A stretch of DNA of 64,000 nt from Eremomyces bilateralis CBS 781.70. Lineage: Eukaryota. The stretch is taken from assembly GCA_010015585.1 (NCBI GenBank), contig ML975152.1. One strand, 5' to 3'. Position 1 is the stretch's first letter. Every line of letters starts with the position of its first letter. Both the position numbers and the translations under genes were made by a program. The notes under the pieces are model-generated. The model searched no databases, was not told the DNA's origin, and was given only the letters and a program-made list of their open reading frames with translations. This document shows positions 21,049 to 41,364 of this stretch, piece after piece.

Positions 21049-23300
21049 ATGGCGACCGCAATGGAGAGTCCCGTGAAAAGGAAATATACCGGCGGCTCCA
21101 GCGATGGTCTCCCTCCAGATCGGAAACGGTTGCGCCTCTCCGACCTTCCCATTTCTCCAGCGAAGAGAGAGGTTTTGGACGGCCTGGTCAACACGTTCAA
21201 AAAGCAGGGAGAATTCGACGTCATCCGCAAGCATGTCTACAAGCAATTCGAAACTTCGGTATGGTACATAGTCACAGCTGAAGGAAGTCTGCTCACGTCC
21301 ACTAGCCGGCCAAACATCAGTTAACCACCGCCCTCATCCTGCTCGCCGAAGGGGAAATCGACCGCCACCCGGACCTCTTATCGAAAGATCGACGCATCTC
21401 CAGTGCCCTGATCGAAGGCGCCGCAGAACGCAATGACATCTACAAGGAAGCCCTGTCCACCATCGACGGCTACATCGGCCAGTTCCTCACCGATGCCGAA
21501 TCGAAACTCCGCGCCGTCCGCGCTACAGAGATCGGCTCGACCGCTGCAGACGATGAGCGCGAGCGAGGCAGCAAAACTGATGACCAATACGCCCAGGAAA
21601 GTGACGAGCGCCGAGCCGCGCTGTTGCAGAAGCTGGAGGCGCAGCGCGAGAAAGAACGGGAGCGCGAACGCGAGGAGAAGAAGATCGCCGCGGAGAAGAA
21701 GCGCCGGCAGCAAGAAGCGGAGGAGAAGCGCGAGCGCGAGCGGCAGGAGATGGAGGAGAAGCGGCGGCTGGAGCGGGAGGCGGAGAGGGAGAGGGAGCGG
21801 GAGGAGTTTGAGCGGGGGCGCGAGGAGCGGAGGCGGCTGAGGGAGGAGCGCGCGCGGGAATACGAGCGGCAGAGGGAACGCGATCGGTCGCTCTCGAGGA
21901 ATCGGTCGCGGGATAGGCGTCGCTCCCGGGACAGAGACCGAGATCGATCCCGAGACCGAGATCGGCATCGCGCGGGCAGTGCATACGCCGACAGACGGGA
22001 CTATACGGACCGAGACAGTCGAAAGGGAAGTGTGCAGATTACGGTCACCAGAACAGAAGACAAGCCATCGGCGCCGCCCGTGAGCGAGAAGGATTTGGAA
22101 GAAGCTGCGTTAGCGCAACTCCTGAAAGAGGGACAACAACTAGCGAAATCTAGGCAACGGCCTGAACTCGAGCGATCGGAGGATCTCGCTCCCCCACTAC
22201 GACGGTCGATGGCACCCAAGTCCATCATTCCTCGCGATCCCCTGGCCACTCGGCTCGCGAAATTGGAACGGCTTCCCGTCAAGGAAAAGAGCCGGGAATC
22301 GTCGGAAACACCGCTGAAAACGCCGGTCGATGCAAAGGCTACAGAAGACAAGGTCGTCAAGGTCGAGATATCCAAAACCGAGTTGTCGGTGCCAAAGCCA
22401 GTGCCGGAAGACCGACACCCATCTCGCGACCGCTCTCCGAACCTTACAAAGACCCGAACCCGCTCCCGCTCCCGCTCAAGAGCATCCACCCGCCCTTCCT
22501 ACTCCCATCGCTCTCGACGCGATGACGCCCGCGATGACTCCCGGCGCCCTCGAGACGACGCACCGGACTACAAATCACGCTCCTACCGCAACCACGACGA
22601 CTCCGATGACGACCGACACCGACGCAGCCATCGAAAACGCGCTCGGTCGGAGTCCCGCTCTCCCAGCCCTCCCCGTCGGTACAAGAACGAGCGACAGGCA
22701 CACAGCCGCCGCAGCCGCTCGCCCGGAGAAGAATCCCTTCGGTCGTATCGCGGAAGGGACCGAGACCGAGATCGAGATCGAGACCGCGACCGAGATCGTG
22801 ACTACCTTCGCGACCGACGAGACCGAGAACGCTCCCGATCTCGAGATCGGTATCGAGACAGGAATTCAGAACGATCCCGCTCTCGCGACCGGCGCCGCGA
22901 CCGCGACGAGCGGCCCCGCGAGCGGTCGTATTCCCGGACGTCGCGGCGGAACCGATCGCGGAGCAAGAGCGCGGTGGAGATTGATCGGTACGTGCCGAAT
23001 TCGAGCGCGCGGGCGAAGGAGAAGGATGAGGAGCGGGATGGGGATCGGAGGGGGTATCGGGAGCGGGATAGGGATAGGGACAGGGATCGAGATAGGGATA
23101 GGGACAGGGATCGAGATAGGGATAGGGACAGGGATAGGGATCGGGACAGAGATCGGGATAGAGACCGTGATCGGGATCGAGATCGAGGGTTCGTCGAGAT
23201 TGATCGATATATACCCGGGGGCTCAACGCGGAGTGACCGAGATCGGGAACCTGGGAGAGAGCGGAGAAGGGATCGGACGGGGAGTCCAAGGGATAAGTGA
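21049..23300 (+). CDS. Protein with N-terminal COMPASS Shg1/BOD1-like domain, charged coiled coil and long RS/RD low-complexity tail
   Basis: LVNTFKKQGEFDVIRKHVY resembles the Shg1/BOD1 signature. An intron from ~21259 joins to the frame of ORF 21624-23300. Confidence 0.7.
23065..23186 (+). repeat. Coding hexanucleotide-derived repeat encoding an Arg-Asp dipeptide tract
   Basis: GATAGG/GACAGG/GATCGA units translate as about 20 RD dipeptides. Confidence 0.9.
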
Positions 23301-27567: not shown

Positions 27568-28396
27568 ATGCTCACCGCACGCACATCCGCCGCGCTTCGT
27601 GCGCACCTCGGACGACGCATGACCGCCGGCTCCGCACGAACGACGACCGCCCGCATGCAATGGGGACAGGCAACGGGGCGGGCATATTCGTCGGGGCGGC
27701 CGGAGGCGAAGAGTAATGATCTGATTTGGTGAGTTTGAGCTATTTCCCTGGGCTGCTCTGTGGCGTTGGCATGTCGCCAAATGGTCATTGGGAGGCATTG
27801 GGTCTCAATGGATGGAACAAATGTTGATGTGGGGGATTATAGGGCGTTGGTGGCGACGGCGGTGACGGCTCCGGCGGCGTATATCTTGTGGGACGGCGGA
27901 CAGAAGAAGTTGGCTGAGGTGAAGGCGCACGCGGCGCATGCACATGAGGAGCATGCGGAGGAGCATGTGGAGGGGGCGGAAACGACGGAGCAGGAGGCGA
28001 AGGAGGAGGAGAAGTCGGAGGCGGTTGAGGAGCCGAAGGAGGAGAAGAAGGAGGAGGAGGAGGTGAAGGAGGAGAAGGTGAAGGAGAAGAAGGAGGAAGA
28101 GAAGGAGGAGGAGAAGCCGGCTGAGGAGAAGCCGGTTGAGGAAGAGAAGAAGGTAAGTGTTTTAGACCGGCTCATCATCTAGAGGCACGCTAACATGTTG
28201 TAGGAGGAGAAGCCGGAGGAGAAATCAGAGGACAAGCCAGAGACCAAGTCGGAGGCCACGCCCGTCGAGGAGGCCGCTCCGTCGAAGGTACCGTTCCTCC
28301 TCGCGATCACTACATTCGTTCCAATCACATTACTAACGTCTGCCGCAGAAGGACGAGCCTACACTCGAGGCCGCGACGCCCGTGGAAAAGTCATAG
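27568..28396 (+). CDS. Hypothetical protein: putative mitochondrial presequence, one TM segment, Glu/Lys-rich tail; 4 exons
   Basis: MLTARTSAALRAHLGRR...RAYSS...SNDLIW|ALVATAVTAPAAYILW then E/K-rich exons. GT-AG introns with CTAAC branch points; TAG at 28394-28396. Confidence 0.65.
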
Positions 28397-36248: not shown

Positions 36249-37650
36249 TTAGGCCCAGATTCGGAGCTGTTGGAGAGAAAACGGATTAGCAGCCAGATCG
36301 CTTAGAATTTACGACAAGATCTGAAGTCAACATACCATTGAATCCCAAGACCCGGTGCACAGACTGATCGCATCATTGCTCACACCCAAGCAGCTCACGC
36401 GGTTGTCGTGTCCTTGTAGAGTACCCACGCGTTCACCTCGAAGCACATCCCAAACCTATAGGCCAATGAGTTATTTGTTTCGACCATCGTTCTCGTTGGA
36501 AAGCATACCTTGCACTCAAAATCGTCATAACCAGCGAAGAGAAGACGCCCTGAAACTGAGAAAGCAACCGATGTGATCCCGCAAACAGGCTCACCGATCT
36601 GGAAAGTCGTCAGTTGGTGGATACTTGCAACGAGAATCGCAACGGGACGGCCTGCAAGCCGATCCCTTGCGCCAATATGTACGCACCGTGTAGCTCTGCA
36701 ATTCCCGGTCGGCGCGAATGTCAAACAGACGGCAAGATGCATCGTCGGAACCGGTACCGAACGCGTTACCGTTCGGGAAATACTGAATCGCGTTGATATC
36801 CGAATCGTGCGCCGCGAACGTCTGCACGCATTTCTGCGCGCGGATGTCCCACAGCTTCGCGAACGCGTCGCACGCGCCCGACACGAACTGGTTGTTGTCG
36901 AGCGGATTGATGCTCAGGCTCATCACGTCGCCCAGGTGGTCGGCGAACTCGTGGATCTTCGCGCCCGTCTCGACGTCCCAAAGGACACAGGTCATGTCGC
37001 CGGAGGAGGTCAGGATGCGGCGGTCATTGATGAACCGACAGCAGCTGAGGTAGCCGGAGTGGCCCGAGAGCTCGCGAGCGACGCGCGTGGGCCCTTCTCG
37101 CGCCGACAGGTTGTAGATGGAGCAGATGTTGTCGAGGCCACCGCAGGCGACGTAGTTGCCGGACGGTGAGTAGGCGCAGGTCATGACCCAGGAGGAGCGG
37201 AGGGGGATGGCATGGACTTTGTTGGTCGTGTAGGCGTCCCAGATGATGAGTTTTCCATCCTGCGATGCCGAGACGAGATGTCTTCGGTCCGTGGACCAAT
37301 GCATCGCGTAGATTTTGGCGAGATGGCCTTTGAGGGTTCGCTTGGTTTTCATCGCAAGCCTGGGAAGTTGGTCGACTCGTGACCGGGCCACATCGCGCAC
37401 TAAAGACCACATCAATTAGCGAATCCATCGTGTCAATTAACGGATATGAACGAAGATAAGTCGATTGCAGCAACGGTCGACCGACGACACGTCGGATGCA
37501 TTGGAAGGTCGACGGAGCTGGAGGAAGCAGCTTACGTGTTGTGTCGGCAAGTTCATCCTTCTTTCGCTTTATCCGGTCCTTCAAAGCTTCTGCATCGCGG
37601 CGAGCGGCTTGAATGCGCTGTTGGAGGGTATCAGCGTTCATGTCGGACAT
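36249..37650 (-). CDS. sfaD: Heterotrimeric G-protein beta subunit (SfaD/GNB-1 orthologue); multi-exon
   Basis: [69 protein letters not shown]40 repeats; ends LRIWA*. Confidence 0.97.
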
Positions 37651-38649
37651 GCCAGGTGGTCGACGAGGTCGAATCGCTGATCGTAGAGCGAGAGAGAGGA
37701 GAGAGCGACGACCAAAGGAGGAGAAGTCAGAGGACAATCAGCAATCACAGCCCAGGGATAGTGGAGATGCGAGGTGGTCAAGCGTCCACTGTTCGGGTAC
37801 GGCACAACTAAAATACGAGGTATGAGTTGGGGTGGGGGGGAGCCGAATCACAACGGGGAATGGCAATGACGAGAACAAGGCAGATGATGACAAAATGAAG
37901 ATTCGGTGATGGCAGAACGGAAGTGGGACGATTGAGGAGTGAGAGGAAGACCGAGAGCTGGAGATCCAAGGTGGTCGGACTAGTGGTAGTAGGCCAAGGC
38001 CCGAAGCTGGAGCAGTTGGTCGGCAGACTAGTGGTTGTACCGTGTATTAGGCACTAGGTATACCGTATAGGTAGGCTGAAGAATAAGAAGCAACCAAGTC
38101 CGTGAGGATGGAGGAAGTATTATGAAGCAATGAATTCCAAGGACGAGGTTGCGCCGGACGTGGAAGAGGAACGTGCGGAGTAGTGCGATACGGTGGCCGG
38201 TGCAGCGATGGTATGTGCGCCGGATGAGAGGGAAATAGGATAGACAAATAGGATGGAGAATTAGAAAGTTGAAGGATAAGGTTGAAGGATGAACGTCGTG
38301 TAGTGGTGCAGTTAGAGTCTGAGGAGCGAGGAGTGGGTTGCCGCAGCGAGATTATTGATGGATTCGGTTGAGATCTGGTGCCGATGGGGAACGGCGGAGA
38401 ACTGGCTGTCGAGTGGAGAGGGAGGGAAGGATGGGAGAGAGAGACGGGGGAGTCAGTTTGGTCACTGGAGTGTCTGTGTGCCCAGTACCAGCCCAGGACC
38501 CAGGACTCAGCAAAGGAGTGTGTGCTGGTGCAGTCCTGACTTATAGAGTGTGGGTGATGGAATAATAGTATGTAGAATAACAATACTGGAATTCCACTCT
38601 GACTGTCACTGGGCCGAACTTTGAATTGAAGAAGCTCCTGCTTGTTCTC

Positions 38650-40692
38650 CTCTCTTCTATATCGAGATGTATAAGCCTATCAGGCGTCATCTTCTGCTTC
38701 TGTTTCTTCTGCTTCTTCTAGATTCTACAGACTACAGCCGCACAGGGATTATTAACATTGCAGGTTCTACCTAACTGCGGACTAACTCCTAAGCCCTTCC
38801 ATAGACTCGTAATGTTCATAGAACAGAGCCAGGGAGAGCAGCCTTAGAGAGAGTTAGAGGCGACAAGGTCGAAGCACTGGTCGGCGGTGCGCTGTGCGGA
38901 TGTTCAACCCTAATTATTATCGACGGATTGGTCTTTTATGGCCCAGTTAAACCTGTTTCCAAGCCTGGACCTAGTTCAACTGGATGATGGATTTGCTGCT
39001 AGGACGAATCACGAACCCCTCGAAATATGAACAAGCTATTGAAGCCTCAATATTAATGGGTACAACGGCTTCTGTTCATCCTGACCATTAAACACTTGGT
39101 ACAGTTATGGATTGAATATAAACTAATGATACCTCTAGATCTAATGTGCGGTTCGTATTGTTACCGGTTTATGTATCATATCTGCTCCCTCTCCTGCTCC
39201 TTCCAATTCCCTTGCGCGCTTCCTAGTTTGGCTTGGAAAGTCGGAATGAATGAAATGGGAGTACGATGTCGCTACTTACTCCACCAATTAGCGGTCCGTG
39301 CTTCATCCCGCGCTTGCCTTCTTTGCTTCACTTCCCCGGCTTCCCTGCCTGCTCATTTCTCCAAATCTCTGCTCAGTGCTCGCATTGTCCTCTCCCCATG
39401 CCAACAGCCAATATTCAATAATGGTATGTATGGAATATTCTTAAGCATTATCCTTTGCTCCTTCCTGATCTGGTATTATGATGATATCCCAACCCCTTCT
39501 GCGTTGGCTTGCTGTAACTCAGGTACGTGTCTATGCAGTATTATGCAGCTCGCCCTGACAGTGCCGTATTATCCCTGAATCGTGAATTCCCTTTTGGATT
39601 TGCCCGACTTTGCTTCGATGTTAGTAAAACGGGGTTTCATTCTTATTTCTCCGGGTTTCCCCCCTCCGGCTTTTCCATCTGACGCCCCGGCACACCGGAT
39701 CCCCTCCCTGCATTTCTTCACTCCTTCTGGACTTCTAGTCTTATGGCTGAATTCAACGGAACAGCCCGAGTTGAATGCCGCTCATCTGGCCGCAGTTTGT
39801 ACCGTCAACGGTGACACCACTAAGCACCGACACCATCACAACCGCGATCTGCAGGCTGCAGCGGTACAGCGCCTCCCATTCTGCAGGAATAAAACGATTC
39901 TTTTTCCATTCCCACCGATATACCCAAATCAGGTAATATTCCGTACGTCCCTTGATACCTATGACCGCGGAGCCCAGATTCCCAACCCCGAGCCCACAGC
40001 AACATCCATCCCCTGCCCGTCACAATGCAAGGAAATAGAGGGCGTGAATGGTCTGCAATCACATCGGTGATTGGACAGTTCCACCGACTTTAATTTGACC
40101 CGCACTGTGTTCGGTCGAATGGTCGTGCCCGCATCAATCATCAGTCATGTTCGCGGGTTTGCCGCAGGTCCGCTGCTCGAGCCGAGAATTAAAGGTCCGT
40201 ACCACCATGTAATATGGCAATTGGGGCATTGACATACCACAGTCCTACTAATAATGATGGGTTCCCCCGCTGTGTATTAAACGCGGAACACTATTCCATG
40301 AAGCCGTTTCATCAATGACCCTCTCGATGAGGCATGATAAGTCCCGATTTGGTGTATCGAGCTTCGTATCGGGCCTTGCAGCCTCCATCCCATTGCCAGG
40401 ACGATTTCTCATTATTAGGGGAATCAAAAAACACCGGTATTTCGGCACTGGTGACGACTCTGAGCGCAGCGCCCGATTCCGTGTGGTCAACGTGTTTCGA
40501 GCTATTCGTAATCAATATCTCCGTTGATAGGGTTCTGCATTGTCAAAAGACCCGAGGCTTTGTGTCTGCCTGCCTGGCCTCCGACGCGCTGGTAAACGAT
40601 GCGAGTCATTCCCAGCGCATCTGGTAGATGAACTTTTGGGGACCAATCCCGGTTCCGTGAAATCATATCGATCCCGATGTGGTGGATTGGTC
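38650..40692 (+). ncRNA. TER: Candidate telomerase RNA (TER/TR), ~2.04 kb; ends approximate
   Basis: Template AACCCTAA 38906-38913. Template-boundary helix 38734-38745/38892-38903. Pseudoknot: P2 39630-39635/39684-39689, P3 39638-39650/40031-40050. Core-enclosing helix 38728-38734/40049-40055. P6 40530-40553. P6.1 AGGC-TTTGT-GTCT 40555-40567. Sm-like AACTTTTGG 40631-40639. Terminal hairpin 40641-40649/40684-40692. No credible ORF. Confidence 0.82.
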
Positions 40693-41364
40693 ATGGACGA
40701 CGGAGGTCGTGGGCGTGCATGCCGAGTTTGTAAACCATGTCAAGGCCATGATGGACGTCCTGGGCCCGATCGGGACTGCTTTGAGGTGATATGGCTGCAC
40801 GTCGATGATCTGCACAACTGCTACTGGTGGCATTCGGTATCAGGTGCCCGCATTGGTAATCCCGTGTGTCTCTATAGTTCTACAGAGCAGTCAGCAGGTG
40901 CCAGGTATATGCAATATATGATCCACAAGCCGATATCCGACATGAGTGAACATCCGAATGCCTTGCATGTGCCTGAACATCATGGGTCACGTGCAAACGC
41001 GTCTTGGAGAGATTATTATGGGTCCTGCATCACGTCTTTCTCGCGCCCGCTGCGCTGCGTTGCCATCAGAGGTGTGAATAAAGTTGGAATACTATGTATA
41101 ACAGTATTGCAGATACTGTATGGATAATGGCTTTGCCACTGGCTCTGAAGTCACTCTATGTCTACAGCATTTCTCCAGTCCCAGCCCTGCCGATCAAGGT
41201 CTGAATTGCCTCATCCAATTCCACATACCAGTAACCATTTTGTAGAGCACAGGACGCTCTATCTCTTGAATGCATCTCCGGGTTTGACTACGCCCCCAAA
41301 CTCTGTCCGGCTATCACCTATCATTGGATGCTTATACTGAAATAACAGCTCCTCTCCTGTCACG

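What the first reader, a model, noticed from the sequence alone, without database searches (positions are those of the whole stretch)
38728..38913. Template flanked by a long template-boundary arm
SEEN: AACCCTAA (38906-38913) is complementary to TTAGGGTT, one TTAGGG repeat plus 2 nt of alignment. The helix ACAGCCGCACAG (38734-45) / CTGTGCGGATGT (38892-903) has 8 perfect bp plus 3 bp across one mismatch and ends 2 nt 5' of the template. Inside the arm, CTAACTC (38781-87) pairs with GAGTTAG (38851-57). INFERENCE: a yeast-like template boundary element. The base before the template is C (CAACCCTAA, not TAACCCTAA), so the template may be a minimal 8 nt, which could affect processivity or repeat fidelity.
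Basis: partly seen in the sequence, partly recalled or inferred. Interest (0 to 1): 0.7.

Follow-up and report, generated by a model that had tools for sequence, protein, structure and literature searches.

The report
Fungal telomerase RNA template and boundary
A short telomere-template sequence next to a stem in a transcribed, apparently non-coding gap of a filamentous fungus is likely the template and stop signal of its telomerase RNA, an ordinary known arrangement except that the template is probably one base shorter than usual.

Summary
In detail: an 11-of-12-bp helix ends 2 nt before AACCCTAA (the inner 7-bp strand is at 38782-88, off by one). The 8-mer alone is chance-level; the helix is not (10 of 1000 shuffles). 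RNA contigs of one run cover 38649-40921 unspliced. The host is a Dothideomycete with a TERT gene. TACAGA, invariant upstream of Aspergillus boundary helices, is present, and this site has the strongest template-adjacent helix of 12 TACAGA…AACCCTAA sites in the genome. Verdict: likely (about 0.85) the template and yeast-type boundary element of a Pezizomycotina telomerase RNA, a described feature. By Aspergillus register the C is linker, leaving an 8-nt template. Such templates are already proposed for three Aspergillus species, and rodents have 2-nt alignment regions. Two downstream U's could add wobble pairs favouring TTAGGG. Not shown: covariation (no orthologue in 72 loci), strand, pseudoknot, CR4/5, 3′ processing signal, or the telomere repeat itself (none at 190 contig ends). 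Rfam gives no hit. The scan noted similar fungal telomerase RNA genes in other genomes. New member of a known kind; modest interest.

The parts
38649..40921 (+). Stretch covered by unspliced RNA contigs; inferred telomerase RNA precursor (strand inferred, true ends not mapped)
   Evidence: run X3 records 6 (38649-39056) and 7 (39029-40921), no joint inside, while X3 shows spliced joints in both neighbouring genes. ORF checks negative.
38726..38731 (+). TACAGA, the motif invariant upstream of the boundary helix in Aspergillus telomerase RNAs (core-enclosing helix 5' strand); partner strand unassigned here
   Evidence: 10 of 10 rows of PMC3603654 Fig. S1; candidate partners AGTTTGTA at 39794 and 40725, 8 bp each
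38734..38745 (+). 5' strand of the predicted template boundary helix
38782..38788 (+). Inner helix, 5' strand CTAACTC (corrected coordinate)
   Evidence: P about 0.83 in local folds
38851..38857 (+). Inner helix, 3' strand GAGTTAG
38892..38903 (+). 3' strand of the predicted template boundary helix (8-bp core 38892-99; outer 3 bp 38901-03)
38904..38905 (+). 2-nt linker TC, as in Aspergillus; C38905 inferred not to be copied
   Evidence: register comparison
38906..38913 (+). Predicted 8-nt template AACCCUAA (6 templating + 2 alignment nt)
38914..38915 (+). UU 3' flank that could extend primer alignment by two dG·rU wobble pairs (inferred)
   Evidence: register table
39630..39894 (+). One unproven pseudoknot candidate: stem 1 39630-34/39649-53; stem 2 39640-48 (bulged C)/39887-94
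   Evidence: Region flagged by the scan, pairing refined by hand from the sequence (coordinates). Register resembles the Aspergillus stem 2, but there is no five-U loop and one pair is flipped. Not tested against chance.
40530..40567 (+). Unproven P6 / P6.1-like element (AGGC-UUUGU-GUCU, NUNGN loop)
   Evidence: chance-level (112 of 200 shuffles); junction base is G rather than the invariant A; no contiguous P5

Best explanation
This is likely the template and template boundary element of the fungus's telomerase RNA: the helix is predicted to stop reverse transcription at A38906, so that the 8-nt template AACCCUAA would add TTAGGG repeats. Shown: the sequence, the helix complementarity, RNA coverage of the locus, and a TERT gene in the genome. 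Inferred: plus-strand transcription of a precursor of about 2.3 kb; folding of the helix; a 2-nt linker (UC) that is not copied. After each round the primer would end in GGGTT and realign with TT on A38912-13, helped by two dG·rU wobbles on U38914-15. That register favours TTAGGG over TTTAGGG and would give lower repeat-addition processivity than a 9-11-nt template. The 146-nt arm interior is probably a dispensable insertion. Component odds: telomerase RNA about 0.85; helix is the boundary element given that, about 0.9; 8-nt boundary yielding mainly TTAGGG given both, about 0.75-0.8.
For: RNA contigs of run X3 cover 38649-40921 with no joint, while the same run skips introns of both neighbours. 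The two 150-aa ORFs have no relatives: 0 hits in 1.84 billion representatives and only the window's own record. There are no Pfam hits for 4 of 4 gap ORFs scanned. The host is Dothideomycetes/Pezizomycotina with one TERT. Helix beyond chance: 10 of 1000 and 26 of 1000. TACAGA 90-230 nt before AACCCTAA arose in 1 of 5000 shuffles of the RNA-covered stretch. Of 12 such sites genome-wide, this one has the most stable template-adjacent helix (-21.3 kcal/mol, 2-nt linker). It is 1 of 3 with TCG just downstream. Published Aspergillus geometry is the same, and the RNA-covered length lies within the published 1584-2425 nt. Register table: run of 4 pairs for the TTAGGG register, 1 for TTTAGGG. The human enzyme holds about 4 primer-template pairs and tolerates non-Watson-Crick pairing at the 3' alignment end (PMC8648750 passages).
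Against: No Rfam hit, including RF02462 Telomerase_Asco (in the genome was run with a stricter filter and is uninformative). No orthologue in 72 related loci, so no covariation. The helix vanishes in two unconstrained long folds, and its outer 3 bp plus A38906 pair elsewhere in larger contexts. No canonical U-rich triple-helix pseudoknot could be assigned. The P6.1-like motif is chance-level. The only ATAAGT (40337) has no branch-site match within 90 nt and lies upstream of that motif. TACAGA is only 2 nt from the helix, against about 17 nt in Aspergillus, and its partner is ambiguous. Strand is unknown. The three Aspergillus species with an 8-nt AACCCTAA template are reported to make TTTAGGG, not TTAGGG. 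The motif set was partly chosen after seeing the sequence, so the shuffle figures flatter it.
Confidence: 0.6

Rival explanations
1. Same telomerase RNA and boundary, but the primer often realigns by one base, so the enzyme would make TTTAGGG or mixed TTAGGG/TTTAGGG repeats.
For: TeloBase Table 1 assigns TTTAGGG to 3 of 28 listed Aspergillus species with bracketed template AACCCTAA, and mixed CCCTAA(A) to 2 more. Kuprys et al. note extra T residues from slippage.
Against: Here the 1-nt register gives T-A followed by a T·U mismatch (run of 1), against 2 Watson-Crick plus 2 wobble pairs for the 2-nt register.
Confidence: 0.12
2. The terminal helix pairs fray and the boundary lies further 5'. Copying C38905 (template CAACCCUAA) would end products in TTG, which could realign on UAA through a wobble and give TTGGGG or mixed TTAGGG/TTGGGG repeats. 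Still further read-through would give 11- or 13-nt repeats.
For: The outer 3 bp are context-dependent (P 0.05-0.96). The C-copied product has a run of 5 pairs (wobble, WC, WC, wobble, wobble) in that register. Fission-yeast telomerase reads into its boundary helix (PMC4993307, PMC7857110 passages).
Against: The 2-nt linker rule in Aspergillus places C in the linker. It needs extension from a 3'-terminal wobble. Long-repeat readings have only 2-nt end repeats, unlike most long Aspergillus templates.
Confidence: 0.08
3. Not telomerase RNA: an unrelated long non-coding transcript, possibly read from the minus strand out of the DUF4211-gene promoter, that carries the 8-mer and a helix by chance.
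For: The 8-mer is chance-level in the window and occurs in 129 of 5000 shuffles of the stretch. No Rfam hit; no secure pseudoknot, CR4/5 or 3' processing signal. No 200-nt window folds better than shuffles (best z -0.82 of 15). A CACGTG-N3-ACGCGT element sits at 40986-41003, at the far end.
Against: It needs the conjunction of transcription, TACAGA at the expected spacing (1 of 5000), a 2-nt TC linker and a helix in the top 1-3%. The first 74 nt are 69% pyrimidine on the plus strand, as is usual at fungal transcript 5' ends (recalled; weak). None of the other 11 genomic sites is a better candidate, though that search only sees loci that keep TACAGA.
Confidence: 0.15
4. It is the telomerase RNA, but the described helix is not the boundary element; a different pairing, such as TACAGC 38733-38 with GCTGTA 39511-16 as core-enclosing helix, sets the boundary.
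For: In Aspergillus the TACAG strand pairs with a CTGTA strand (alignment read). The only CTGTA in the RNA-covered stretch is at 39512. The helix is absent from unconstrained long folds.
Against: That pairing is only 6 bp, and no A-rich pseudoknot strand precedes 39512 (sequence). The described helix is the most stable template-adjacent one and has the published spacing.
Confidence: 0.05

Closest known systems
Aspergillus telomerase RNAs (Kuprys et al. 2013, PMC3603654; main text parts 1-4 of 6, Fig. S1 alignment and Fig. S3 read; Figs S2 and S4 not readable)
   Same: Template core CCCUAA; boundary helix of about 8 bp ending 2 nt before the template; TC linker; TACAGA upstream; TC(R) shortly after the template; intergenic, about 2 kb.
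   Different: Here only 2 nt separate the helix end from AACCC (3 nt in Aspergillus: the U is missing) and C precedes AACCCTAA. The arm is longer. TACAGA abuts the helix. The Aspergillus pseudoknot, three-way-junction, Sm/AUAAGU/branch motifs are not recognisable. RF02462 does not match.
Neurospora crassa TER (Qi et al. 2013, PMC3592445; main text parts 2-5 of 7 read; supplement unreadable)
   Same: Pezizomycotina layout: template, boundary element, core-enclosing helices. Its minimal core keeps activity with nt 256-433 deleted, which I infer is the equivalent long arm.
   Different: Its template is 9 nt (UAACCCUAA) and experimentally validated; extending it raised processivity 2-3-fold. The pseudoknot and P6/6.1 defined there could not be assigned here.
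Aspergillus species with proposed 8-nt AACCCTAA templates (A. terreus, A. carbonarius, A. allahabadii; TeloBase, PMC10767889, section with Table 1 read)
   Same: Same 8-nt template proposed.
   Different: They have U, not C, 5' of it and are assigned TTTAGGG. No row of the 28 has C directly before AACCCTAA.
Rodent telomerase RNAs with 2-nt alignment region (PMC4993307 passages; PMC3592445 Discussion)
   Same: Minimal 2-nt alignment, linked to low processivity.
   Different: Vertebrate RNA type; in some rodents the boundary is set by the RNA 5' end, not by an adjacent helix.

Membership tests
Pezizomycotina telomerase RNA | Template of more than one telomeric repeat with a CCCUAA core | tested here: met
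   AACCCTAA at 38906-13, one repeat plus 2 nt
Pezizomycotina telomerase RNA | Template complementary to the organism's own telomere repeat | tested here: inconclusive
   No telomeric array at 190 of 190 contig ends or by pattern
Pezizomycotina telomerase RNA | Template-adjacent boundary helix about 2 nt 5' of the template | tested here: met
   (predicted by complementarity; context-dependent)
Pezizomycotina telomerase RNA | Covariation support for that helix | not testable with these tools
   No orthologue among 72 loci
Pezizomycotina telomerase RNA | Transcribed, long (1.6-2.4 kb), intergenic, no conserved ORF | tested here: met
   (one run, contigs only, strand and ends not shown). Two of the three ATG ORFs of 144 aa or more were searched for homologues; the third only against Pfam.
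Pezizomycotina telomerase RNA | Core-enclosing helix (TACAG strand paired 3' of the pseudoknot) | tested here: inconclusive
   TACAGA present at 38726; two equal 8-bp partners, neither securely behind a pseudoknot
Pezizomycotina telomerase RNA | Pseudoknot with U·A-U triples | tested here: inconclusive
   The scan gave several candidates, none canonical; compared by eye
Pezizomycotina telomerase RNA | CR4/5 three-way junction with P6.1 (4 bp, NUNGN loop, junction A) | tested here: inconclusive
   Candidate 40530-67 is chance-level, lacks the junction A and a contiguous P5
Pezizomycotina telomerase RNA | 3' end signal: U-rich tract, AUA(A/C)GU 5' splice site and branch site | tested here: not met
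   ATAAGT at 40337 has no U tract before it and no branch-site match within 90 nt; no ATACGT. The consensus used is from Aspergillus, so a divergent Dothideomycete signal would be missed.
Rfam RF02462 Telomerase_Asco | Score at or above the gathering threshold | tested here: not met
   genome search found no match anywhere (strict filter)
Pezizomycotina telomerase RNA | Binds TERT and templates telomere synthesis | not testable with these tools
   A TERT gene exists; no biochemical data

The most novel reading that the evidence does not exclude
The real template is CAACCCUAA, one base away from the Tetrahymena template (recalled as CAACCCCAA). The weak outer 3 bp of the boundary helix act as a switch: stopping at A gives TTAGGG, copying the C and realigning by wobble gives TTGGGG. 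This fungus would then carry ciliate-like or mixed telomere repeats and offer a natural snapshot of how a one-base boundary shift changes the telomere motif.
Probability: 0.08. Interest if true: 0.65.

Novelty: new member of a known kind. Interest (0 to 1): 0.3.

Why it matters
It likely supplies an unannotated telomerase RNA gene for a Dothideomycete order for which my literature searches found no report; the species table of Qi et al. 2013 could not be read, so prior listing of a relative is not excluded. The boundary element itself is a described feature. The point of interest is a natural one-base-short template with a C at the boundary and a UU flank. That is a clean system to test whether wobble pairs can replace Watson-Crick alignment and what decides between TTAGGG, TTTAGGG and TTGGGG repeats in filamentous fungi.

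Tried and rejected
Telomere repeat: no TTAGGG x4, CCCTAA 16-mer or direct TTAGGG tandem. TTAGGG pairs with 0-12 nt spacers gave 34 hits, none with spacer 0 and none at a contig end; the one triple is internal. TTGGGG-type patterns gave 2 and 7 internal hits. All 190 contig ends lack telomere-like arrays, so the assembly says nothing on the repeat. Repeated helicase-like contig ends did not lead to a telomere. Orthologues: 72 metagenome loci with the DUF4211 neighbour gave no blastn match to the template region. Their 24 ACCCTAA sites show no telomerase-RNA-like context by eye (four read in full). Three loci keep G-beta and phosducin nearby, in other arrangements. Rfam: negative. Run X3 leaves 38565-38648 and 40922-41083 uncovered and has lower depth on the 5' contig; I do not use either as evidence of ends or strand (one run, contigs only). 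No holder was on record as RNA; X3 was shown to be RNA by its spliced joints. X1 and X2 may be the source DNA and are not independent. X3 shows no sequence differences, so no variants test the helix. Global folding is uninformative. Pseudoknot candidates at 40083-40111, 40343-40372, 39744-39776 and 40630-40692 were set aside for lacking a U-rich loop or an A-rich partner (and inspection). ATAAGT 40337 was rejected as 3' signal. A coding transcript, as reported for Ustilago (search listing only), was rejected. The 11- and 13-nt long-repeat templates were judged unlikely. Supplements not seen that may bear on the claims: Qi 2013 Table S2 and Fig. S2, Kuprys Figs S2 and S4. The second 2015 paper on Neurospora 3' processing is not held; the TeloBase supplement has no entry for the genus or class.

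Full report
Observation. The sequence is as described. AACCCTAA occupies 38906-38913. The strands 38734-45 and 38892-903 form 8 Watson-Crick pairs, a G·A mismatch and 3 more pairs, and leave TC (38904-05) before the template. The 8-mer alone is what chance gives (1 in the window, expected 0.91), and neither the 201-nt region (z -0.78) nor the arm interior (z +0.07) folds better than shuffles. The template-adjacent helix does exceed chance: 10 of 1000 dinucleotide shuffles of the 300 nt upstream, and 26 of 1000 random window positions, gave a helix as stable ending within 4 nt. In partition-function folds the 8-bp core is near-certain in three local or span-limited contexts and absent in two unconstrained long ones. 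The outer 3 bp fall from about 0.9 to 0.05 as context grows.

Setting. The site lies in the gap between a G-protein beta gene (minus strand) and a DUF4211 gene, with phosducin and a TEL1-type kinase gene nearby (TEL1 is my reading of the PI3/PI4-kinase plus FATC domains). A protein identical to the DUF4211 product carries a genus name placed in Dothideomycetes, Pezizomycotina. The genome has one match to the telomerase RNA-binding domain family, followed by reverse-transcriptase motifs. Run X3 is RNA: it skips introns of both neighbours that the DNA runs X1 and X2 keep. Its contigs cover 38649-39056 and 39029-40921 without a joint. Contigs show neither strand nor true ends, and this is one run. 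The ORFs in the covered stretch have no Pfam match, and the two 150-aa ORFs have no relatives.

Identity. Published Pezizomycotina telomerase RNAs are 1584-2425 nt and intergenic (PMC3592445; PMC3603654). In Aspergillus a yeast-type boundary helix of about 8 bp lies mostly 2 nt from the template. In that paper's alignment TACAGA is invariant upstream of the helix in 10 of 10 rows, the linker is TC or CT, and TCRG follows the template. The window has TACAGA at 38726, a TC linker and TCG after the template. TACAGA 90-230 nt before AACCCTAA arose in 1 of 5000 shuffles of the covered stretch. Genome-wide there are 12 such sites; this one has the most stable adjacent helix and is 1 of 3 with TCG. 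These motifs were partly picked with the sequence in view, so the figures are optimistic.

Evidence against. Rfam gives nothing, including RF02462 (one search is uninformative). No canonical triple-helix pseudoknot could be assigned. The best P6/P6.1-like element (40530-67) is matched by 112 of 200 shuffles and lacks the junction adenosine that PMC4993307 calls invariant. The only ATAAGT has no branch site and lies upstream of that element. TACAGA has two equal candidate partners. A scan of metagenomes through the DUF4211 neighbour returned 72 loci and no orthologue, so covariation is untested. I put the telomerase RNA identity at about 0.85; strict family membership remains open on three core features and fails on the Aspergillus-type 3' signal.

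Mechanism (inferred). In Aspergillus, helix, 2-nt linker and a U precede AACCC; here the helix and 2-nt linker lead straight into AACCC. If the spacing rule holds, C38905 is linker and the template is 8 nt. Products then end in GGGTT. The register table gives two Watson-Crick pairs plus two dG·rU wobbles on U38914-15 for the TTAGGG register, against one pair and a mismatch for TTTAGGG. Human telomerase holds only about four primer-template pairs and is lax at the 3' alignment end (PMC8648750 passages), so the wobbles may be enough. Shorter alignment lowers processivity in Neurospora and rodents. If C38905 were copied, the product would end in TTG and could realign on UAA with a run of five pairs starting with a wobble, yielding TTGGGG; this is the most novel open reading. 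The Neurospora minimal core keeps activity without nt 256-433, which I infer is the same arm, so the long arm is probably dispensable.

The repeat is unknown. None of 190 contig ends carries a telomere-like array, and pattern searches found no terminal TTAGGG, TTTAGGG, long-repeat or TTGGGG arrays.

Novelty. The boundary element is a described family feature. TeloBase Table 1 proposes the same 8-nt template for 3 of 28 Aspergillus species and assigns them TTTAGGG; rodents have 2-nt alignment regions. None of those 28 rows has C directly before AACCCTAA. Searches for a Dothideomycete or genus-level report found none beyond Mycosphaerella graminicola, but the species table of Qi et al. could not be read. 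Papers seen: PMC3592445 parts 2-5 of 7; PMC3603654 parts 1-4 of 6 with Figs S1 and S3; PMC4299874 part 2 and passages; PMC10767889 passages, one section and a supplement search; PMC4993307, PMC5175330, PMC7857110, PMC8648750, PMC10035886 passages only. The Tetrahymena template and repeat are recalled. Earlier scan notes list a 2-kb telomerase RNA candidate on this window and similar genes in other fungi; they are leads, not support.

Verdict. A real but ordinary feature: likely the template and boundary helix of a new, divergent member of the Pezizomycotina telomerase RNA family, with a probably 8-nt template whose output repeat is the one open and testable question. Interest 0.3.

Noticed in passing
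window 40986-41003: GTCACGTG-N3-ACGCGTC closely resembles the putative promoter motif upstream of Aspergillus telomerase RNAs, but here it lies beyond the far end of the RNA-covered stretch, upstream of the DUF4211 gene.
   Followed up: partly
window 37536-38564 (minus strand): The G-beta RNA contig extends unspliced about 0.9 kb upstream of the start codon and stops 84 nt from the next RNA contig, which suggests a long 5' UTR and a compact divergent promoter (ends not shown by contigs).
   Followed up: no
window 38723-38731 and 40879-40887: TTCTACAGA occurs near both ends of the RNA-covered stretch, and the 8-mer AGTTTGTA, complementary to TACAGACT, occurs twice inside it (39794, 40725).
   Followed up: partly
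window 38916-38925 with 40800-40809; 38917-38927 with 40520-40530: The segment just 3' of the template has two long-range partners of 10-11 bp; either could be a core-enclosing helix.
   Followed up: no
window 40560-40800: A long irregular stem-loop (-89.9 kcal/mol over 241 nt) near the far end of the covered stretch; not better than shuffles in 200-nt windows.
   Followed up: partly
L063, L064, L086: DUF4211, phosducin and G-beta stay clustered in 3 of 72 related loci, in shuffled order and orientation; a database protein (P0025) fuses DUF4211 with PI3-kinase and FATC domains, which suggests DUF4211-TEL1 adjacency elsewhere.
   Followed up: partly
G000 contigs C7, C17, C20, C26, C28, C29, C35, C37, C44, C50, C72: A repeated helicase-like element occurs in 11 places in two identity classes (100% and about 76%), mostly at or near contig ends.
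   Followed up: partly
L228:1-260 (start of C64; same start in C57): Degenerate GGGTT/AACCC inverted repeats at a contig start; not a telomeric array.
   Followed up: no
window 22747-23177 and 27983-28262: Low-complexity tandem repeats (6-nt GGGATA/GACCGA and GAG-rich), probably coding repeats.
   Followed up: no
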